NCBI GenBank assembly: GCA_963635575.1
Contig: CAVHFU010000023.1
Coordinates: 1 to 22,292, forward strand
Direction of reading: 5' to 3'
Source of the DNA: a bacterium
GTDB taxonomy: Bacteria; Bacillota; Clostridia; TANB77; RGIG9151
DNA length: 22,292 nucleotides
This document shows, in pieces, positions 3,706 to 22,292 of this stretch (the first letter of the stretch is position 1; every line of letters begins with the position of its first letter). The position numbers and the translations under genes were made by a program. A model generated the notes under the pieces. It had not been told where the DNA came from, made no database searches, and worked only from the letters and a program-made list of their open reading frames with translations.

Positions 3706-4926
3706 TTATTCAAGCTTATCCCTCTTTGGCTTAAACTTCACATCATTATTTAAATCCGTAGCCCTTGTTATACTTTTATATCCATATTTACTTCTAAGTA
3801 AATCAATAGTATCATCAATTTTCTTTTGCTTTTCATTTAGCTTATTATCAAACAATGAAAGCTGCCCCTTATCCTTCTCTTCTAATTTATCAACTCTAAC
3901 TCCGACAAGTCTTATAGGCACATTATTTTTATACATTTCATCAAGTAGCTCCCTAGCTTTTTTAGCAATATCTTGTGTGTTACAAGTAGCTATCACTAGC
4001 TTACCTTGATGTGAAAAATCTCTAAAATCTTTAGTCCTTAATTGAACATTTATACTAGATGCTTTTAATCCTTCTTTTCTAAGTCTGTATGCCACTTGCT
4101 CAACCAAAGAAAAAATTATGTCATACAGTTCCTCTTTATTATTTACATCAATCGGTAAAGTAATCGAGTTACCTATTCCCTTAGGCTTCTCTGGTAAATA
4201 AATCACTTCCGATTCATCAATTCCGTTTGCATATTCCCACATCATTTTTCCGTGTTTTCCAAACATTCTTATAAGTCTATTCTTATCTGTTTTGGCTAGT
4301 TCCCCTATAGTTCTTATTCCGATATTATTTAATTTCGGAACAGTTTTTCTACCTAGCATAAATAAATCTGAAATAGGAAGTGGCCACATTTTAGTAGTAA
4401 TTTCTTCTTTATATAAAGTATGGACTTTATCTGGTTTTGAAAAATCCGAAGCCATTTTAGCCAAAAGCTTATTGTTTGCAATTCCTACATTAACAGTAAA
4501 TTTTAGTTCTTCTCTTACACGCCTATTTATTTCGTTTGCGACCTCTTCTATTTTCCTCTTTCCTAAAAACTCAGTCATATCAAGAAAACATTCATCAACA
4601 CTAAATCTCTCTATCTTATCCGTATATTCTAAAAGCAAGTTATATAGCTTATTTGAACATTCTGCATAAAATTTATAATTACTCGGAAACAGTCTAATAT
4701 TAGGACATTTCTTCCTCGCTTGATATATTGTTTCGCCGGTTACTACTCCACACGCTTTTGCTTTCATACTTTTGGCTAAAATAATTCCCGAACGTCTTTC
4801 CTCATCACCTGCAATTGCTGATGGAATTGTTCGTATATCTATATCCCCACCATTATTTAAAATATCTATCGCAGACCAACTTAAAAAAGCATTATTCACA
4901 TCAACATGTAAAATTTTCCGTTCCAT
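3706..4926 (-). CDS. Y-family translesion DNA polymerase (ImpB/UmuC/DinB family)
   Basis: N-terminal ILHVDVNNAF (UmuC-like D-V-N rather than the DinB D-M-D). Catalytic SVDECFLDMT motif. 406 aa. GGTGG SD. An SOS box lies in its promoter. Confidence 0.9.
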   Translation of the reverse strand: MERKILHVDVNNAFLSWSAIDILNNGGDIDIRTIPSAIAGDEERRSGIILAKSMKAKACGVVTGETIYQARKKCPNIRLFPSNYKFYAECSNKLYNLLLEYTDKIERFSVDECFLDMTEFLGKRKIEEVANEINRRVREELKFTVNVGIANNKLLAKMASDFSKPDKVHTLYKEEITTKMWPLPISDLFMLGRKTVPKLNNIGIRTIGELAKTDKNRLIRMFGKHGKMMWEYANGIDESEVIYLPEKPKGIGNSITLPIDVNNKEELYDIIFSLVEQVAYRLRKEGLKASSINVQLRTKDFRDFSHQGKLVIATCNTQDIAKKARELLDEMYKNNVPIRLVGVRVDKLEEKDKGQLSLFDNKLNEKQKKIDDTIDLLRSKYGYKSITRATDLNNDVKFKPKRDKLE

Positions 4927-7221: not shown

Positions 7222-7573
7222 TGGTGGAGGCGAGGAGAATCGAACTCCTGTCCATAAACCTATCCATATAAGCTTCTCCGAGTGCAGTTTGTAGTTTTAC
7301 ATTCCCTCTGCTATTCGCCTACAAACAGGCTAATAGTTTTAGTAGCTTCATAAAATACCCCTCAACTCAAAGCTTTGTTGACTTCGTGGTCACCTGTCGA
7401 CGCCGAACTCTAAGCCGGTGACACTCTTAGGTCGACGTAGCCGCGCTTAGGCAGCTAAAGCTAATTCATTATTATTAGCGTTTAATTTTAATTTCCCGCT
7501 TTTTTAAGTGGCCAGCAGGACCCACTACTCGCTACCTATACTTCAAAATAAATGTCGATACCTTTACGCCCCC
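7222..7573 (-). ncRNA. ssrA: tmRNA (SsrA), 352 nt
   Basis: On the minus strand the 5' end is GGGGGCGTAAAGGTATCGACA and the 3' end is GGACAGGAGTTCGATTCTCCTCGCCTCCACCA (tRNA-Ala-like T-arm, acceptor and CCA). Internal tag ORF GCT AAT AAT AAT GAA TTA GCT TTA GCT GCC TAA gives ANNNELALAA. Confidence 0.97.
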
Positions 7574-7578
7574 ATATT

Positions 7579-8046
7579 CTATGCTTGATTCTTTTCTTTG
7601 AATCTCATAGCCATTTCCTTTTGAGCACTTTTTTTAGCTATATCTTGACGTTTGTCATATAATTTCTTACCCTTTCCAATGCCAATGGTTAGCTTTGCCC
7701 ATTTACCCTTTAAATATAGTTCTGTTGGTACAAGTGTTATGCCTTCTCTTTTTATCAAACCTATTAACTTATTAATTTCCTTTTTAGTAACAAGCAATCT
7801 ACGTTTTCGAATAGGATCTACATTAAAAATATTTCCTTTTTCATAAGGACTTATATGCATACTGCTAATAAACATTTCACCTTTATCTATATATGCATAA
7901 CTATCTTTTAAATTAACATTTCCCATTTTAATTGATTTTATTTCAGTCCCTGTAAGCTCTATTCCGGCTTCAAACGTATCATTAATAAAATAATCGTGAT
8001 ATGCTTTCTTATTAGAAGCAATTTTTTTAATAGGATAATTCGGCAT
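7579..8046 (-). CDS. smpB: SsrA-binding protein SmpB
   Basis: NKKAYHDYFI...EAGIELTGTEIKS...LVPT..Y signature. ATG 8046 follows AAGGTGGTGA. The ORF-track start 8067 lacks an SD. Its stop is 5 nt from the ssrA 5' end. Confidence 0.93.
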   Translation of the reverse strand: MPNYPIKKIASNKKAYHDYFINDTFEAGIELTGTEIKSIKMGNVNLKDSYAYIDKGEMFISSMHISPYEKGNIFNVDPIRKRRLLVTKKEINKLIGLIKREGITLVPTELYLKGKWAKLTIGIGKGKKLYDKRQDIAKKSAQKEMAMRFKEKNQA

Positions 8047-8146
8047 CTTTTTCACCACCTTCAACACTCATTGATTATACACCAAAAAGTGATATTATAC
8101 AATACCGCAATTATTTTTTACTGATGTTTACAATAATTTTTTTATG

Positions 8147-15722: not shown

Positions 15723-15727
15723 TCATT

Positions 15728-15761
15728 AAAAAAGAATTCTGCTAATTCAGAATTCTTTTTT
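15728..15761. terminator. bidirectional rho-independent terminator
   Basis: AAAAAGAATTCTG / CAGAATTCTTTTT 13-bp stem. It overlaps the stop codon of the convergent YycI-like gene. Confidence 0.8.
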
Positions 15762-16281
15762 AATGCATTTTATTCATCTGCTCTCCTAAATATGCATTAT
15801 ATATGTACTCCGTTCCATCTTCTAACACTACCCTCCAAGCCGGTATGGCCTCTCCTGACAATACCGTTTTATCTATTTGACTCATCTCCGGATAATATCC
15901 CAAAACAATTTCTTTAATTGTTATATTTTCGAACTTCATATCTCTTATAAAATTAGTTAAGATTACAGGGAATGATAATACACTTCTATTTCTGCCAATA
16001 TATATATCTTTATCATTTATAATTTCACTTATGAAAATGAACTTAGGTTCAATATTCTCACTATTACTTATACTTATCTTTCTCATATATCCCCTAGTTT
16101 CCACTTTAGCCAAATCAAAATCACATTTTATATTTCTAGTCTCTAATATCGAACGTATTGACTCTATACTTTCAGCATTAACTGTACCAGCTTGATTTCT
16201 TTGATAAACTTTATACCCTAAAAAACAATTTAACATTATAAAAACAAAAATAAGAAAACTCTTTACCCATTTCCATTCCAC
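15760..16281 (-). CDS. YycI-like single-pass membrane protein
   Basis: N-terminus MEWKWVKSFLIFVFIMLNCFLGYKVY closely resembles the YycI N-terminal TM (MDW..K.IFI.AFL.LN.FLGYQ). GTG start 10 nt after AGGAGA. At 173 aa it is shorter than Bacillus YycI. Confidence 0.6.
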   Translation of the reverse strand: MEWKWVKSFLIFVFIMLNCFLGYKVYQRNQAGTVNAESIESIRSILETRNIKCDFDLAKVETRGYMRKISISNSENIEPKFIFISEIINDKDIYIGRNRSVLSFPVILTNFIRDMKFENITIKEIVLGYYPEMSQIDKTVLSGEAIPAWRVVLEDGTEYIYNAYLGEQMNKMH

Positions 16282-19045: not shown

Positions 19046-19093
19046 TCACTTCCTTTTAAAAAGTACTCACCAATATTATAACATATTTTTGAT

Positions 19094-20554
19094 TTACTCC
19101 TTCACAATAACTGTTCCGTCGTTTTCTACTTCTCTAATATTTATAATAGTAATCTTATTTTCTTCATTTACATATAGGTCATATATAATTGTCTTTAACG
19201 CAGGTTTTCCTGTTTCCCAACTACGCATATAAGAAAACTTAACCGTACAATTTCCTTTTCCAATACCTGTTATAACAAATTTATACTTTCCACCGGCACC
19301 AACAATGTTCTTATCTACATTCTCAGATACGTACTCACTTTCAACCTTAACAACTTCAGGGTCAGACTCAATAATTCCCCAATCGTATCCTGTTGTAGGA
19401 TTACCATCAAGTTCAAATTCAACTTTATCAAGGTTTGCACCAGATAAGTCTATTTTTACAATTCCATCAGAGCCAGTATATGGAATCGAGGCTGATGGTA
19501 CTCCCATAGCATACATCGCTATTTGATATCTATTAAAATATAATCCAAGTGAATCATCTGTCAACTGGAATTCTACATTATGTATTTCATCTTCTAGTTT
19601 TTTTCTTATTTCTGTTATTATATCTGTATCAACATTTTCCTCAATCATGGCATCAAACCATTGCTCAAAAGCATCTTTTACAATAGTGTCAACTTCATCT
19701 TGTTCGCAACCTAGTATATCTTGCAAAGATAGCTCCTTCTCCATTAACATTTGAAATGTTCGAGAGTTCATATATATATTAGGATGAGGTCCATTAGTAT
19801 AAGAGTAATCATAAGTAGTAATAGATAGCATATTATTTCTATTAAGTGTAACATCATAATAGAAGTTAAACGTTAATGGTTCAAAATATTCCTTACTCAT
19901 TTCCGAATATGTTTCTTTAGCATCCGATATCCACTGTTCTTCCACATCTTTTACATATTTTTCAGCCTGTTCTTTGTATTCTTTATTTATGTAATCACAG
20001 AATCCATTAGCACCATCATTTTCAATCACAGGATACGAACAGTCGATACTCATAATCATTGTGCCATCATCTGCTCTTATAACTTTTGTGATGTTTTGTG
20101 TTTTAATTTTATATTGACCCTGCTTTGACGAAATATCAACAGTTCTCGTCTCATCATCCCATTTTACTTTACAGTCAAGTGCTTCCGAGATAGCTCGTAG
20201 TGGGACTAATGTCCTCCCATTTATAATTTTAGGAGCAACATCCAGCTTTTTAGTTTCAAAATCTACCTCCATATCGTACTGACCAACTCTAAGACTAATT
20301 AAATCATTTCCTCGCCTAGCAGACACTATCATACCTTTGCTATCTTCTTGATAAGAAACCGCACAGCCAAGTTCTTCAAAAATCTTTCTAAATGGAACTA
20401 AAGTTCTCCCATTCTCAATTACCGGATTAACATCAAAAGTTAATGTATGATCATTTAACTTTACGATAACTTCATCAGTAGTTGCAAAAACAGGATTGCA
20501 AGATAAAACTATCATTGCACCTATAACCCCACAGCTTAGTTTTTTAATCTTCAT
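19094..20554 (-). CDS. exported multidomain protein: 2x copper-amine-oxidase N-terminal-like repeats + DUF4163/DUF3298 + chagasin-family (MEROPS I42) inhibitor domain
   Basis: Signal peptide ending VFA. NGRTLVPFRKIFEELGCAVSY and NGRTLVPLRAISEALDCKVKWD match CuAO_N. YSYTNGPHPN matches DUF3298. The C-terminal NPTTGYDW, VGAGG and YMRSWETG align with the chagasin NPTTGFAW, GAGG and YMRPW loops. ATG 20554 follows GGGGG. Confidence 0.85.
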   Translation of the reverse strand: MKIKKLSCGVIGAMIVLSCNPVFATTDEVIVKLNDHTLTFDVNPVIENGRTLVPFRKIFEELGCAVSYQEDSKGMIVSARRGNDLISLRVGQYDMEVDFETKKLDVAPKIINGRTLVPLRAISEALDCKVKWDDETRTVDISSKQGQYKIKTQNITKVIRADDGTMIMSIDCSYPVIENDGANGFCDYINKEYKEQAEKYVKDVEEQWISDAKETYSEMSKEYFEPLTFNFYYDVTLNRNNMLSITTYDYSYTNGPHPNIYMNSRTFQMLMEKELSLQDILGCEQDEVDTIVKDAFEQWFDAMIEENVDTDIITEIRKKLEDEIHNVEFQLTDDSLGLYFNRYQIAMYAMGVPSASIPYTGSDGIVKIDLSGANLDKVEFELDGNPTTGYDWGIIESDPEVVKVESEYVSENVDKNIVGAGGKYKFVITGIGKGNCTVKFSYMRSWETGKPALKTIIYDLYVNEENKITIINIREVENDGTVIVKE

Positions 20555-20599
20555 AAAGTAAACCCCCACTTTCTTATTTTGCATTTGTCTAACAAATTT

Positions 20600-20661
20600 A
20601 TTCTACAATTTTAAAATTAACAAGTCAATATGATTTTATGGTTTTTCCTAATTTATGTCAA
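20600..20661 (-). promoter_or_regulatory. two tandem sigma-A promoters for the envelope gene cluster
   Basis: On the minus strand, P-distal is TTGACA (20656-20661), 17 nt, TAAAAT (20633-20638). P-proximal is TTGACT (20623-20628), 17 nt, TAGAAT (20600-20605). Confidence 0.5.
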
Positions 20662-20723: not shown

Positions 20724-20808
20724 GCTGATGTGATGGAATTGGCAGACGTGCTTGACTCAAAATCAAGTTCCGAGAGGAGTGTGGGTTCGACTCCCACCAT
20801 CAGCACCA
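20724..20808 (+). tRNA. tRNA-Leu (anticodon CAA), type II with long variable arm, encoded CCA
   Basis: Acceptor GCTGATG/CATCAGC. Anticodon stem CTTGA/TCAAG with loop CTCAAAA. Variable arm TTCCGAGAGGAGT. T-arm GTGGGTTCGACTCCCAC. 3' end ACCA. Confidence 0.95.
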
Positions 20809-20814
20809 AAACCG

Positions 20815-20853
20815 AAAAAACGGATTACAAAATTACTTGTAATCCGTTTTTTT
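20815..20853 (+). terminator. rho-independent terminator of tRNA-Leu
   Basis: CGGATTACAA (20821-20830) / TTGTAATCCG (20837-20846) followed by seven T (20847-20853). Confidence 0.85.
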
Positions 20854-21151
20854 ATGCCATTTTTCATTCAAAATCAGTCTGCAATAGCCGATTAAAATAA
20901 CTCGAACTTGTCAACTAAAATAATATTATTGACACTATACACTACCCTAGTGAAACAAACTCAGAGACGCGGAGCAAAACAAGTGGTCAGCTCTCTTTCA
21001 AACGTGGCTTATATTAACCTTCTCGCATGGGTTGGGTGAATTAACTTGCGCGTTAATGGTGGGAGATTATTTACATATTGTAATTTATAAGTGTATATGT
21101 TATACCCTGACTTTTGGATAAAGCCTATAATGGCGAGTATGAACGGTTGAC

Positions 21152-21171
21152 CACTTCACGAAAGTGAGGTG
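21152..21171 (+). promoter_or_regulatory. SD-sequestering hairpin upstream of the 32-codon ORF
   Basis: CACTTCAC-GAAA-GTGAGGTG: 8 bp with one G-U and a GNRA loop. The 3' arm is the SD GAGGTG, 6 nt from ATG 21178. Confidence 0.6.
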
Positions 21172-21177
21172 ATTTTT

Positions 21178-21276
21178 ATGGATAATTTAACTTTGATTTT
21201 AACACTATTTATTATAGTTGCTATAAAAGAAGTAATGAAATACATAAAAAAAATAACTGTTCCTCGGCTAAGGTAA
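21178..21276 (+). CDS. 32-aa hydrophobic/basic peptide, candidate type I toxin-like small membrane protein
   Basis: ATG...TAA encodes MDNLTLILTLFIIVAIKEVMKYIKKITVPRLR. It is below the ORF-track length cutoff. It has a good SD at correct spacing, a hydrophobic helix plus a K/R tail, and a hairpin overlapping the stop codon. Confidence 0.45.
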   Translation: MDNLTLILTLFIIVAIKEVMKYIKKITVPRLR

Positions 21277-21288
21277 ACAGTTATTTTT
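21246..21288. terminator. asymmetric bidirectional terminator hairpin
   Basis: AATAACTGTT (21252-21261) / AACAGTTATT (21276-21285). There are 8 A on the plus strand before it (8 T after it on the minus strand) and only a short T-run after it on the plus strand. Confidence 0.55.
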
Positions 21289-21458
21289 ATAACTTAATAC
21301 TTTGGTCAACCGTTCATACGGCTTTATCTATTTATATTTTTTCTATAAGCAATTAACATTTCTTTATATTTTTTTAATTCTTTTATCTCCTATGATGTTA
21401 ATCCGCCCGTTAGATTTTTCGTTATTAGGGTTGTTAGTTTTTTTCATTATATGGTACA

Positions 21459-21503: not shown

Positions 21504-22292
21504 TTAAGGCTCAACCCATGCAATTCCTGAGCCATTACCATCATAAGTAACCTCACTAGTACCAAATTCCTCTAAATTTCCATTAAACGTCGCATAAAAA
21601 CTTTTATCCTTTTTTGGAACTTCATTTAACTCTTTCGGGCCTATTGCAATTACTACCTTGATTTGGGAAAGCTTATCTTCATTTATTATTGTAGCGTAAT
21701 ATGCGCCATCTTTTCCTATACTCTTCCCGTAGCATATTGGTTCATTATCCATAATATCCATATATTCTTCAAAACCCTCAATCTCATCTACTCGTACAAA
21801 ATCATTTTCCACATCTTCTACGTTAAAATTTAAATTAATAGGATCCATAGTAGCATCTGTGTGCCATATCCTTACTGCCTTGCCGATTTGAGCTGCCATA
21901 GCTTTATCAGCGCTTACCTGCATTCTATCTTGAACAGCCGAGAGATTATGAACTGCAATTAGTGATAATAAGGTGATAATGATAATGGTAAATATTAATC
22001 CTAACCAAAGGACAATTTTTATAGGTTTTTTTGCTTTATTAGCTGCAACAGCATCATCTTTATCGGCCGCAGGTTTCAATTTAGTAAACCATAAAATTAA
22101 AGCTATTATTCCGGCTGGAATATTAACACACAATAATTCTATAATGCTCCAAACCAATAGTCCCGTTGTTTTTATCGATTCTTTATTGTTTCCCCCGAAA
22201 TTAGTCTGAGAAACTCCTCCATAATTTGCACCACAGTTTGGGCATGTCGTATCGAAATCTCCCATTGGTGCCCCACAATTTTTACAAAACAT
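21504..22292 (-). CDS. zinc-ribbon membrane protein with a CD225-like TM pair and a pilin-like helix plus C-terminal domain (start at or beyond the window edge)
   Basis: CKNCGAPM...CPNCG zinc ribbon. LLVWSIIELLCVNIPAGIIALILWF resembles CD225/dispanin. A third TM is followed by NLSAVQDRMQVSADKAMAAQIGKAVRIW, which resembles the type IV pilin N-terminal helix region. The ORF reaches the window end. Confidence 0.6.
   Translation of the reverse strand: MFCKNCGAPMGDFDTTCPNCGANYGGVSQTNFGGNNKESIKTTGLLVWSIIELLCVNIPAGIIALILWFTKLKPAADKDDAVAANKAKKPIKIVLWLGLIFTIIIITLLSLIAVHNLSAVQDRMQVSADKAMAAQIGKAVRIWHTDATMDPINLNFNVEDVENDFVRVDEIEGFEEYMDIMDNEPICYGKSIGKDGAYYATIINEDKLSQIKVVIAIGPKELNEVPKKDKSFYATFNGNLEEFGTSEVTYDGNGSGIAWVEP

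What the first reader, a model, noticed from the sequence alone, without database searches (positions are those of the whole stretch)
21117..21330. Candidate type I toxin-antitoxin-like RNA cassette: 32-aa membrane peptide, occluded SD, split inverted repeat, asymmetric terminator
Seen directly:
1. An unannotated 32-codon ORF (21178-21276) encodes MDNLTLILTLFIIVAIKEVMKYIKKITVPRLR, a hydrophobic helix followed by a Lys/Arg tail.
2. Its SD GAGGTG is the 3' arm of the hairpin CACTTCAC-GAAA-GTGAGGTG (21152-21171).
3. A 17+9-nt perfect inverted repeat brackets the ORF (21117-21153 versus 21303-21328). The left copy alone carries an 11-nt insert containing TATAAT (21126-21131). A transcript started ~7 nt after that box would begin at the 17-mer, and its 5' end could pair with a 3' segment 150 nt away.
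4. The left repeat arm overlaps the first two bases (21152-21153) of the SD-hairpin 5' arm. The 5'-3' helix and the SD hairpin would therefore abut and could stack or compete.
5. The hairpin at the ORF stop (21252-21285) has 8 U downstream only on the minus strand. It looks like the terminator of a convergent antisense RNA that would overlap the 3' end of the ORF.

From established knowledge, these elements match type I TA loci. Translationally inert mRNA locked by a 5'-3' long-distance interaction occurs in hok/Sok and AapA1/IsoA1. 3'-overlapping antisense antitoxins occur in txpA/RatA and bsrG/SR4.

The locus sits next to a tRNA gene. The peptide does not obviously match Fst, TxpA, BsrG or PepA1 sequences as I remember them, so it may be a new family.
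Basis: partly seen in the sequence, partly recalled or inferred. Interest (0 to 1): 0.7.

Follow-up and report, generated by a model that had tools for sequence, protein, structure and literature searches.

The report
Candidate small toxin–antisense RNA cassette
A 290-base stretch next to a tRNA gene encodes a tiny, evolutionarily conserved membrane peptide inside a tightly folded mRNA. It is built like the known "type I toxin–antitoxin" modules but belongs to no described family, and neither toxicity nor transcripts have been tested.

Summary
There is a 32-codon ORF, its ribosome-binding site sits in a hairpin, a perfect 17+9-nt split inverted repeat brackets the ORF, and a hairpin with 8 U on the minus strand sits at the ORF end.

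The key new result is one homologous cassette, L056, from a metagenome. It lies in a different genomic place, downstream of recR.
- **Peptide:** across the 25 shared codons, dN/dS is 0.075 (p=1.4e-4), and only in the ORF frame.
- **Helices:** all six two-sided changes in the three helices keep the pairing. Two G·U pairs work only on the ORF-strand RNA.
- **Ribosome-binding site:** both copies have an unusually strong SD closed by an anti-SD-like arm.
- **Promoters:** in both copies a sense promoter would start the RNA at the first base of the 5'–3' helix. L056 also has a 12/12 consensus convergent promoter that would make a ~97-nt antisense RNA ending at the ORF-end hairpin.

This is therefore a real, conserved small-protein gene organised like a type I toxin–antitoxin module.

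- The TATAAT box in the repeat insert is not conserved.
- The 5'–3' helix does not control SD occlusion.
- The ORF-end hairpin is bidirectional.
- The window's own promoters look weak.

Toxicity and transcripts are untested.

The parts
21078..21106 (+). Sense promoter candidate: TTGTAA (21078-21083), 17 nt spacer, TG (21098-21099), t, TATACC (21101-21106). The predicted start is about 21113-21115, just before the outer arm.
   Evidence: 8/12 plus TG. L056 has the same layout, TTGTAA-17-TGgTAGAAT at 264-292. The window's -10 lacks the final T, so it is probably weak.
21117..21125 (+). Outer 5' arm of the terminal helix (GAUAAAGCC). It pairs with 21320-21328.
   Evidence: -11.3 kcal/mol. Three compensatory double changes against L056.
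21126..21136 (+). Left-only 11-nt insert (UAUAAUGGCGA). It forms an asymmetric internal loop of the terminal helix and contains TATAAT at 21126-21131.
   Evidence: L056 has a 12-nt insert at the same place with an unrelated sequence and no -10 box. Position and size are conserved; the sequence and the TATAAT are not.
21137..21153 (+). Inner 5' arm (GUAUGAACGGUUGACCA). It pairs with 21303-21319.
   Evidence: -28.5 kcal/mol. The core ACGGTTGACC is identical in L056. One compensatory change and two G·U-retaining changes.
21152..21173 (+). SD-sequestering hairpin CACUUCAC-GAAA-GUGAGGUG (21152-21171). The SD is GAAAG(U)GAGGUGAU (21160-21173).
   Evidence: L056 has an analogous hairpin, ACCACCU...GGGGUGGU, at -13.7 kcal/mol, with SD-anti-SD pairing of -17.2.
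21178..21276 (+). Small ORF of 32 codons plus stop. The conserved core is the first 25 codons (21178-21252), M(D/E)NLTL(I/T)L(T/I)LFIIVAIKEV(M/L)KYIKK. The tail ITVPRLR is specific to the window.
   Evidence: dN/dS is 0.075 with Fisher p=1.4e-4, in this frame only.
21246..21253 (+). A8 run inside the ORF, which reads as U8 on the minus strand. It is one base longer than the L056 equivalent (A6G), and this shifts the stop codon by 7 codons.
21251..21288 (.). ORF-end hairpin, a bidirectional terminator-like element. The minus strand has U8 (21253-21246) and the plus strand has U5 (21284-21288).
   Evidence: Two compensatory changes against L056 438-485.
21303..21328 (+). 3' arms of the terminal helix: inner 21303-21319 and outer 21320-21328, contiguous.
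21329..21342 (+). U-rich tract after the terminal helix (UAUUUAUAUUUUUU). UAUUUAUAU is shared with L056. It could be the sense 3' end, or the start region of the antisense RNA.
   Evidence: The function is inferred.
21331..21359 (-). Weak antisense promoter candidate, ATGTTA-17-TATAAA. It is the positional counterpart of the L056 TTGACA-18-TATAAT promoter.
   Evidence: (8/12), against (12/12 in L056).
21504..22292 (-). Convergent neighbour, a zinc-ribbon membrane protein gene. No terminator lies between its stop codon and the cassette hairpin, so its transcript probably reads antisense into the cassette.
20724..20852 (+). Left neighbour: tRNA-Leu(CAA) 20724-20808 and its terminator 20815-20852. 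This is context, not part of the cassette.

Best explanation
The region from about 21078 to about 21360 is a self-contained cassette of the type I toxin-antitoxin kind. It belongs to a family with two known copies so far.

**Shown by comparison with L056:**
- It encodes a conserved 25-residue core peptide with a hydrophobic helix and a Lys-rich end.
- The mRNA carries three conserved helices.

**Inferred mechanism:**
1. The sense RNA starts a few bases before 21117.
2. Its first bases pair with a segment about 190 nt downstream (21303-21328), forming a 9+17-bp terminal helix with an 11-nt one-sided loop. This helix buries the 5' end and probably stabilises the RNA. Termination may occur in the U-rich tract that follows.
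3. Translation is kept low because a very strong SD is closed in a local hairpin by an anti-SD-like arm.
4. An RNA from the opposite strand covers the 3' arm of the terminal helix, the 3' UTR and the last ~31 nt of the ORF, and stops at the U8 side of the ORF-end hairpin. In L056 this RNA comes from a consensus promoter. In the window it comes from a weak promoter and/or read-through of the convergent gene.
5. By analogy with txpA/RatA and bsrG/SR4, pairing at the 3' end would lead to RNase III cleavage and decay of the peptide mRNA.

That the peptide is toxic is an inference from its architecture alone. The window copy may be a weakly expressed or decaying copy.
For: **Coding**
- dN/dS is 0.075, with 8.5 synonymous against 4.5 nonsynonymous differences and Fisher p=1.4e-4. 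This holds only in the ORF frame. The antisense open frame gives p=0.17.
- The SD-anti-SD energies are -19.6 and -17.2 kcal/mol, beyond any gene in the window.
- The spacing from SD to ATG is 7-8 nt.

**Structure**
- Fold z-scores are -7.4 for the window and -7.4 for L056.
- All 6 two-sided changes in the outer helix, inner helix and ORF-end hairpin keep the pairing.
- Two one-sided changes give G·U pairs that exist only in the + strand RNA.
- The one-sided internal loop is kept in place and size, 11 against 12 nt.

**Transcription layout**
- In both loci the sense promoter sits so that the start falls 0-4 nt before the helix.
- L056 has TTGACA-18-TATAAT (12/12) on the opposite strand, starting 3 nt outside the 3' arm and running into the bidirectional hairpin, for about 97 nt.

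**Accessory nature**
- The cassette is absent from the orthologous tRNA-Leu / zinc-ribbon junction in L043. There the gap is about 135 nt, against about 650 nt in the window.
- In L056 it sits downstream of recR instead.

**Peptide architecture**
- The peptide resembles published type I toxins: hydrophobic N-terminus, Lys-rich C-terminus, and a strong RBS 7-8 nt upstream (PMC7699646; PMC6562991; PMC8309996).
Against: - There are no expression data and no toxicity test.
- Only two family members were found, so covariation rests on a single pairwise comparison.
- In the window the sense -10 is TATACC and the antisense promoter scores 8/12, so both promoters look weak.
- If the plus-strand U5 side of the ORF-end hairpin terminates the sense RNA efficiently, the 3' arm would be left out of the sense RNA.
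- The hydrophobic stretch is only about 13-16 residues before K17/E18.
- AT-rich DNA yields Ile/Leu/Lys-rich peptides anyway, so composition is weak evidence.
- The C-terminal 7 residues differ through a 1-nt shift in a poly-A run.
- 26 of 26 Watson-Crick pairs with no G·U in the window copy would also fit a young or DNA-level repeat.
Confidence: 0.58

Rival explanations
1. This is a conserved small membrane protein gene that is not a toxin. Its mRNA is simply very stable and tightly translated. The opposite-strand transcription is ordinary convergent transcription that shares a bidirectional terminator, with no antitoxin role.
For: - Purifying selection, the strong SD and the conserved helices show a real gene but say nothing about toxicity.
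- In both loci a convergent gene lacks a terminator of its own before the cassette hairpin: the zinc-ribbon gene in the window and recR in L056.
- The window's dedicated antisense promoter is weak.
Against: - L056 has a dedicated 12/12 consensus antisense promoter only 11 nt after the recR stop. It would make a discrete RNA of about 97 nt ending at the hairpin.
- A very strong SD that is permanently occluded is typical of genes whose product must be kept off (PMC6562991).
- The cassette occurs at unrelated loci and is absent from the nearest orthologous junction. This fits accessory modules better than housekeeping small proteins.
Confidence: 0.25
2. This is a DNA-level repeat element. It would be either a MITE-like transposable unit bounded by the inverted repeats, or an invertible segment (inverton) flipped by a recombinase acting on the repeats. 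The RNA helix would then be a by-product.
For: - Perfect 17+9-bp inverted repeats flank 149 bp. This is close to the 154-bp C. difficile flagellar switch with its flanking inverted repeats (PMC7446863).
- The cassette sits at two unrelated loci.
- Concerted change of both arms would also be expected if one protein recognised both arms.
Against: - No second copy of the 17-mer pair turned up in the metagenome, viral or genome scans.
- There is no target-site duplication at either locus.
- Promoter-like homology extends outside the repeats.
- No recombinase or transposase is in the 22-kb window.
- The same internal orientation is seen in the window, in the independent Logan contig L002 and in L056.
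- The G·U pairs in L056 keep pairing only as + strand RNA.
- In both loci the helix starts at the predicted transcription start.
Confidence: 0.1
3. This is a chance ORF and chance hairpins in lineage-specific junk DNA left between the tRNA terminator and the convergent gene.
For: - The peptide has no hit among 1.84 billion representative proteins except itself.
- The codon-usage score is only moderately gene-like: 19% of spurious short ORFs score as well.
Against: - A homologous cassette exists elsewhere (blastn E=7.5e-21).
- It shows frame-specific purifying selection and compensatory changes.
- The chance expectation for the 17-mer repeat is 0.01.
Confidence: 0.03

Closest known systems
txpA/RatA and bsrG/SR4 (Bacillus subtilis type I toxin-antitoxin systems)
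   Same: - A Firmicute-type small hydrophobic peptide.
- The toxin RBS is sequestered in a short GC-containing helix.
- The antisense RNA is transcribed convergently and is complementary to the 3' end of the toxin mRNA. Decay through RNase III is the expected outcome (PMC6562991, PMC3834814, PMC3531473).
- The L056 layout fits this directly.
   Different: - There is no sequence relationship: no Pfam or NCBIfam hit at E<=10.
- The peptide is shorter, at 25-32 aa.
- No phage genes lie in the 22-kb window, whereas type I toxin-antitoxin loci are often prophage-borne.
- The mRNA has a long 5'-3' terminal helix whose 3' arm is the antisense target. That review contrasts B. subtilis systems with the Gram-negative ones that use processing of long, inactive toxin mRNAs (PMC6562991).
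hok/Sok (plasmid R1) and aapA1/IsoA1 (Helicobacter pylori)
   Same: - The toxin mRNA has its 5' end paired to its 3' end over a long distance, giving a compact, stable RNA.
- The peptide is about 30 aa (AapA1 has 30 aa) (PMC5416894, PMC6733600).
   Different: - In AapA1 the long-distance helix itself hides the SD, and 3' trimming opens it. Here the SD hairpin is local and stays closed when the 3' arm is removed in silico.
- Their antitoxins pair with the 5' region, whereas here the antisense RNA covers the 3' region.
- There is no mok-like leader ORF.
- There is no HOK_GEF match.
- Those systems are from Proteobacteria and Campylobacterota, not Firmicutes.
Fst / RNA I-RNA II (par of pAD1, Enterococcus)
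   Same: - The peptide is about 33 aa with an N-terminal hydrophobic helix interrupted by a charged residue.
- Convergent RNAs share a bidirectional terminator.
- The 5' structure protects the toxin RNA and limits translation. This point rests on my own knowledge of the par literature.
   Different: - In par, direct repeats in the DNA make the 5' ends of the two RNAs complementary to each other. Here the repeats are inverted, so the two RNAs would carry the same sequence, not complementary ones.
- There is no Fst_toxin Pfam hit.
- Rfam fstAT scores 17 bits against a gathering score of 72.
Clostridioides difficile prophage and CRISPR-associated type I toxins (CD0956.2 family / RCd RNAs)
   Same: - Peptides of 34-47 aa from a member of the Clostridia.
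- A hydrophobic N-terminus and a Lys-rich positively charged tail.
- A consensus RBS 7-8 nt before the ATG, and antisense RNAs (PMC7699646).
   Different: - tblastn of the peptide against 50,697 phage records, with a Clostridioides phage among the DNA matches, finds nothing at E<=10.
- There is no prophage context.
- I know of no 5'-3' terminal helix reported for these systems.

Membership tests
Type I toxin-antitoxin system (generic kind) | Small (<60 aa) hydrophobic peptide with a predicted membrane helix, really encoded | tested here: met
   - The peptide is 25-32 aa, with a hydrophobic stretch L4-I16 and a Lys-rich end.
- Selection is frame-specific: dN/dS 0.075, p=1.4e-4.
- The SD is very strong.
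- The hydrophobic run is short, at 13-16 residues.
Type I toxin-antitoxin system (generic kind) | Cis-encoded antisense RNA overlapping the toxin mRNA | tested here: inconclusive
   - L056 has a 12/12 consensus convergent promoter plus a bidirectional hairpin, giving an RNA of about 97 nt.
- The window has only an 8/12 site, or read-through from the convergent gene.
- There are no transcript data.
Type I toxin-antitoxin system (generic kind) | Peptide is toxic when over-produced, and the RNA neutralises it | not testable with these tools
   This needs inducible expression, with and without the antisense region.
hok/Sok | Hok/Gef-family peptide | tested here: not met
   No Pfam hit at E<=10.
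hok/Sok | mok-like overlapping leader ORF | not tested
   No such ORF was noted in the ORF list of the region, but this was not checked specifically.
hok/Sok and aapA1/IsoA1 | 5'-3' long-distance pairing in the full-length toxin mRNA | tested here: met
   A 9+17-bp helix, conserved with 4 compensatory and 2 G·U-retaining changes.
hok/Sok and aapA1/IsoA1 | The long-distance pairing is what hides the SD, and removing the 3' end opens it | tested here: not met
   The predicted unpaired probability of the SD is 0.34 with the 3' arm and 0.21 without it in the window. In L056 it is 0.16 and 0.14. The local hairpin persists in all cases. This is in silico only.
hok/Sok and aapA1/IsoA1 | Antitoxin pairs with the 5' region of the toxin mRNA | tested here: not met
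   The only consensus antisense promoter (L056 564-535) lies beyond the 3' arm, and its RNA would end at the ORF-end hairpin.
txpA/RatA, bsrG/SR4 | Convergent antisense RNA complementary to the 3' end of the toxin mRNA | tested here: inconclusive
   Predicted clearly in L056 and weakly in the window. There are no RNA data.
txpA/RatA, bsrG/SR4 | RBS sequestered in a short GC-containing helix | tested here: met
   An 8-bp hairpin of -10.4 to -11.5 kcal/mol in the window, and a 7+3-bp hairpin of -13.7 in L056.
txpA/RatA, bsrG/SR4 | Sequence membership of the toxin families | tested here: not met
   No Pfam, NCBIfam or PADLOC hit at E<=10. Whether every B. subtilis toxin has a model in these libraries was not checked.
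Fst / par | Fst-family peptide and the RNA II (fstAT) antitoxin RNA | tested here: not met
   No Fst_toxin hit. fstAT scores 17.1 bits against a gathering score of 72, E=3.6.
Fst / par | Direct repeats that make the 5' ends of the two convergent RNAs complementary | tested here: not met
   The repeats here are inverted in the DNA. The two RNAs would therefore carry the same sequence, not complementary ones.
C. difficile CD0956.2-type toxins | Detectable similarity to the toxin family, found by its authors with tblastn/blastp | tested here: not met
   tblastn against phage and plasmid records gives no match at E<=10. BLAST's low-complexity filter may reduce sensitivity.
Inverton (invertible promoter/terminator segment) | Inverted repeats flanking a segment of roughly 100-300 bp | tested here: met
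   17-bp perfect repeats flank 149 bp.
Inverton (invertible promoter/terminator segment) | Both orientations present in populations; a recombinase acts on the repeats | tested here: inconclusive
   - Only one orientation is seen in the window, in Logan contig L002 and in L056.
- There is no recombinase in the window.
- Raw reads were not available.
MITE | Terminal inverted repeats with a target-site duplication, in many copies | tested here: not met
   - No duplication flanks either copy.
- There is no second 17-mer pair in the window or in three collection scans.
- The complete source genome was not available.

The most novel reading that the evidence does not exclude
The family would work by a mode not described for type I systems. 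The mRNA would be clamped end-to-end by a terminal helix that starts at +1 and, together with the following U-tract, may itself act as a long-range terminator. The antitoxin would be complementary to the 3' arm of that clamp. Antitoxin binding would then unzip the clamp by strand displacement, free the 5' end for 5'-dependent decay, and create an RNase III substrate. Translation would stay blocked independently by the local SD hairpin.

The cassette would also be a portable unit that supplies the terminator for whatever convergent gene it lands next to: recR in one genome, a zinc-ribbon membrane protein gene in the other.
Probability: 0.2. Interest if true: 0.6.

Novelty: new member of a known kind. 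Interest (0 to 1): 0.42.

Why it matters
If the peptide is toxic, this is a new type I toxin family from uncultured spore-forming Clostridia, recognisable only by its architecture. It would join, in a Firmicute-type organism, two control devices usually described in different lineages: a 5'-3' clamp, as in hok and AapA1, and a 3'-overlapping antisense RNA, as in RatA and SR4.

It is also a useful method example. A 32-aa orphan found nothing in a 1.84-billion-protein search, yet it gained a homologue once it was searched as a tandem duplicate. That one homologue was enough to show coding selection and helix covariation.

Practically, such compact toxin cassettes are used as counter-selection markers in Clostridia (PMC7699646).

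Tried and rejected
**Searches for known families and further copies**
- Rfam at gathering and at E<=10 on the window region, and at E<=1 on L056, found nothing relevant.
- Pfam, NCBIfam, PHROGs and PADLOC on the peptide gave nothing, apart from PHROG 8028 at E=0.03, which I treat as noise.
- A full HMMER search of the 32-aa peptide against 1.84 billion representatives returned only the peptide itself.
- The search for homologous proteins and the search for related loci refuse queries of 32 aa. Searching a tandem duplicate of the peptide got round this and found P0165.
- Exact 17-mer scans of the metagenome, viral and genome collections gave 19, 2 and 19 single chance hits, none extending beyond 17-25 nt. 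A better two-copy consensus pattern could then only be run on viral contigs, with 0 hits.
- blastn and tblastn against phages and plasmids, with both copies, gave chance-level hits or none.

**Synteny**
- Relatives of the zinc-ribbon protein (L043-L048, L053-L055) and of the Cu_amine_oxidN1 protein (L049-L052) carry no cassette.
- Only L043 keeps the tRNA-terminator junction.

**Ideas tested and dropped**
- The tRNA 3' end is not repeated in the window, so there is no att-type duplication.
- The region 20860-21180 is not a structured upstream RNA ending at the SD hairpin (z=-0.7).
- The antisense open frame (MYFITSF...) as the real gene is rejected: it shows no synonymous excess (p=0.17) and has no SD.
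- A par-like intermolecular pairing of the repeats is rejected, because the repeats are inverted rather than direct.
Full report
**1. The observation**

The window is low-GC chromosomal DNA from a spore-forming member of the Clostridia. It carries SmpB and tmRNA, a class I (Trp/Tyr-type) tRNA synthetase, DinB, SpoIIIAA and ABC transporter genes, and no phage or recombinase genes.

The finding lies in a 695-nt intergenic stretch. On the left are tRNA-Leu(CAA) at 20724-20808 (+) and its terminator at 20815-20852. On the right is a convergent zinc-ribbon membrane protein gene at 21504-22292 (-).

- The 32-codon ORF lies at 21178-21276.
- The hairpin CACTTCAC-GAAA-GTGAGGTG lies at 21152-21171.
- The 17-nt perfect inverted repeat is 21137-21153 / 21303-21319. 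It gives 2 matches in the window where 0.01 are expected.
- It is extended by the 9-nt pair 21117-21125 / 21320-21328, with an 11-nt insert in the left copy only.
- The hairpin at the ORF end is present.
- Folding energies are far below those of shuffled controls on both strands, at z = -7.4 and -8.9.

Three refinements apply:
- The SD is exceptional. GAAAG(U)GAGGUGAU gives -19.6 kcal/mol against the assumed Firmicute anti-SD. The best of 19 genes in the window gives -14.0, and the best of 64 spurious short ORFs gives -7.6.
- The ORF-end hairpin has U8 on the minus strand (21253-21246) but also U5 on the plus strand (21284-21288). It is bidirectional and asymmetric.
- The exact 32-aa product is already in the public protein collection as an unnamed NCBI prediction.

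**2. Looking for relatives**

Most searches found nothing:
- Rfam, Pfam, NCBIfam, PHROGs and PADLOC gave no relevant hit.
- Phage and plasmid DNA and tblastn searches gave nothing above chance level.
- A full HMMER search of 1.84 billion representative proteins returned only the peptide itself.
- Exact scans for the 17-mer in the metagenome, viral and genome collections gave only single chance hits.

The source genome is represented only by this contig and by two Logan contigs from SRR13434665. One of them, L002, spans the cassette in the same orientation.

In the closest available relative, L043, the zinc-ribbon protein is 73% identical. Its gene is followed after about 135 nt by the same tRNA-Leu terminator, which is 91% identical over 47 nt. 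Next comes a fragment of the tRNA 3' end abutting a phage-type integrase gene. Nothing in L043 resembles the cassette. Other relatives lack it too. The cassette is therefore accessory DNA.

**3. The second copy**

The protein tools refuse 32-aa queries, so I searched the peptide as a tandem duplicate. This returned P0165, a 45-aa gene call on an 844-nt ENA metagenome scaffold, L056. Its last 25 residues are MENLTLTLILFIIVAIKEVLKYIKK.

L056 holds a homologous cassette, with blastn E=7.5e-21. It sits in an unrelated place, between the end of an unknown gene with its own 25-nt perfect hairpin and a convergent recR.

*Coding.* Over the 25 shared codons there are 13 nucleotide differences, 8 of them at third positions.
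- Nei-Gojobori counts are 8.5 synonymous over 15 sites and 4.5 nonsynonymous over 60 sites. This gives dN/dS = 0.075 with Fisher p = 1.4e-4.
- None of the other five frames shows this. That includes the open antisense frame, which gives p=0.17 and has no SD.
- The four replacements are conservative: D2E, I7T, T9I and M20L.
- The window ORF runs 7 codons further (ITVPRLR) only because its poly-A run is A8 rather than A6G, which puts the shared TAA out of frame. The conserved product is therefore the 25-residue core.

*Structure.* I compared the helices base pair by base pair.
- Outer helix: 5 pairs unchanged, 3 compensatory double changes, 1 lost.
- Inner helix: 11 unchanged, including the identical core ACGGUUGACC/GGUCAACCGU. 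There is 1 compensatory change, 2 one-sided changes to G·U, and 3 lost at the ends.
- ORF-end hairpin: 9 unchanged and 2 compensatory.
- Every one of the six two-sided changes restores a pair. If each restored a pair with a chance of about 0.375, the probability of all six is about 0.003 (my estimate).
- The two G·U pairs would be C·A mismatches in a minus-strand RNA. They are simple imperfections if the repeat acts only as DNA, so they favour a helix in the ORF-strand RNA.
- L056 adds five more pairs (GAGGG/CCCUC) outside the outer helix.
- The one-sided loop is kept in position and size, at 11 against 12 nt, but not in sequence: UAUAAUGGCGA against GAAAAACGAAAA.
- The SD hairpin is kept as a structure with a different sequence and loop (ACCACCU...GGGGUGGU, -13.7 kcal/mol). 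The SD is again very strong, at -17.2.
- The whole L056 RNA folds with z = -7.4.

*Promoters.*
- L056 has a sense promoter, TTGTAA-17-TGgTAGAAT (264-292). Its expected start, near 300, is the first base of the terminal helix.
- On the other strand L056 has a perfect TTGACA-18-TATAAT (564-535). Its start, near 528, lies 3 nt outside the 3' arm. That RNA would run through the 3' arm and end at the U-rich side of the ORF-end hairpin. It would be about 97 nt long and would overlap the last 15 nt of the ORF.
- The window has the same sense layout, TTGTAA-17-TGtTATACC (21078-21106), with a start near 21113-21115 and the helix beginning at 21117. Its -10 is poor.
- The window's counterpart of the antisense promoter scores only 8/12 (ATGTTA-17-TATAAA, 21359-21331).
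- In both loci the convergent neighbour has no terminator of its own before the cassette hairpin. Antisense read-through is therefore likely.

**4. What it is and how it probably works**

*Shown:* this is a real, conserved small-protein gene embedded in a conserved RNA architecture. It is present at different loci in two organisms.

*Inferred:*
- The sense RNA begins at the outer arm and is clamped end-to-end by the 9+17-bp helix. The duplex energies are -11.3 and -28.5 kcal/mol.
- The U-rich tract after the 3' arm, with UAUUUAUAU shared by both copies, may be where the sense RNA ends. The weaker U5 side of the internal hairpin would let the sense RNA pass, while the U8 side stops the antisense RNA.
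- Translation is held down by the local SD hairpin, not by the long-distance helix. The SD stays paired in predicted ensembles with or without the 3' arm, in both copies.
- The antisense RNA pairs with the 3' arm, the 3' UTR and the ORF end. By analogy with txpA/RatA and bsrG/SR4, this would trigger RNase III-dependent decay (PMC6562991, PMC3834814, PMC3531473).

Toxicity of the peptide is inferred only from its resemblance to type I toxins. That resemblance consists of a hydrophobic N-terminus, a Lys-rich end, and a strong RBS 7-8 nt upstream (PMC7699646, PMC8309996). I put this reading at about 0.58.

**5. Rivals**

- **Non-toxic small membrane protein with incidental convergent transcription (0.25).** This cannot be excluded without an expression test. 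The dedicated consensus antisense promoter in L056 and the permanently occluded, very strong SD argue against it.
- **DNA-level element, MITE or inverton (0.10).** The repeat geometry resembles invertible switches, such as the 154-bp C. difficile flagellar switch (PMC7446863), and the cassette is found at two loci. Against this:
 - There is no target duplication and no further copy.
 - No recombinase is nearby.
 - All three sequences have the same orientation.
 - Promoter homology extends outside the repeats.
 - The helices begin at the predicted transcription starts.
 - The G·U pairs are strand-specific.
- **Chance (0.03).** This is refuted.

**6. Comparison with known systems**

The cassette works most like the B. 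subtilis 3'-overlap systems. It adds a 5'-3' terminal helix of the kind known from hok and aapA1 (PMC5416894), but that helix does not control the SD here.

It is not a member of the Hok, Fst, Ldr, TisB or Ibs families, nor of any other family with a Pfam or NCBIfam model. It does not match the fstAT RNA or the C. difficile phage toxins.

The par mechanism is excluded, because the repeats are inverted rather than direct.

**7. Verdict**

Three details need correcting:
- The TATAAT box in the insert is not conserved.
- The long-distance helix is not the translational lock.
- The hairpin at the ORF end is bidirectional.

This is a candidate new family within a well-known kind of system. It is supported by one pairwise comparison and no experiment. 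The window copy has weak promoters on both strands and a shifted C-terminus, so it may be a poorly expressed or decaying copy. Interest is moderate.

Noticed in passing
L043:1600-2626 (relative of the window's zinc-ribbon gene region): In the closest relative, the tRNA-Leu terminator and a 15-nt fragment of the tRNA 3' end (one mismatch) directly abut a 317-aa phage-type integrase gene and several small genes. An integrative element has therefore inserted into the 3' end of this tRNA-Leu gene in that organism. The window has the intact tRNA and no such element.
   Followed up: partly
window 20856-21077: About 220 nt lie between the tRNA terminator and the cassette promoter. GC is 38-39%, which is as high as in genes and well above other spacers at 19-25%. 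There is no convincing ORF, no database hit and no significant RNA structure (z=-0.7). Its origin is unexplained; it could be a decayed gene remnant.
   Followed up: partly
window 21246-21253: An A8 homopolymer lies inside the ORF and doubles as the U8 tract of the minus-strand terminator. A one-base length difference from L056 moves the stop codon by 7 codons. Slippage here could switch between a 25-aa and a 32-aa product.
   Followed up: partly
window 21067-21085: The independent Logan assembly of SRR13434665 breaks here. Contig L001 ends at 21085 and L002 starts at 21067, a 19-nt overlap just upstream of the cassette promoter. The cause is unknown; it could be low coverage or a variant branch.
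   Followed up: no
window 7222-8067: A tmRNA gene (tag ANNNELALAA, 165 bits) lies immediately next to smpB on the minus strand.
   Followed up: no
window 15724-15765: An 18-nt perfect palindrome (CATTAAAAAAGAATTCTG / CAGAATTCTTTTTTAATG) with a 6-nt loop overlaps the stop of the gene at 15760-16281. It looks like a bidirectional terminator.
   Followed up: no
window 4454-4467 and 4769-4782: A 14-nt perfect inverted repeat with arms 301 nt apart lies inside the DinB-type polymerase gene (3706-4926).
   Followed up: no
L049-L052 versus window 19080-20639: The Cu_amine_oxidN1/PdaC/DUF3298/Inhibitor_I42 gene has an 86.5%-identical copy in other metagenomes. The similarity stops about 55 nt upstream and about 14 nt downstream of the gene, and both flanks are unrelated to the window. 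This gene therefore sits in different neighbourhoods in close relatives.
   Followed up: partly
L056:184-237: A 25-nt perfect hairpin with a 4-nt loop, AT-rich and with A/T runs on both sides, follows the stop codon of the left neighbour. It is a strong bidirectional terminator that insulates the cassette's sense promoter.
   Followed up: no
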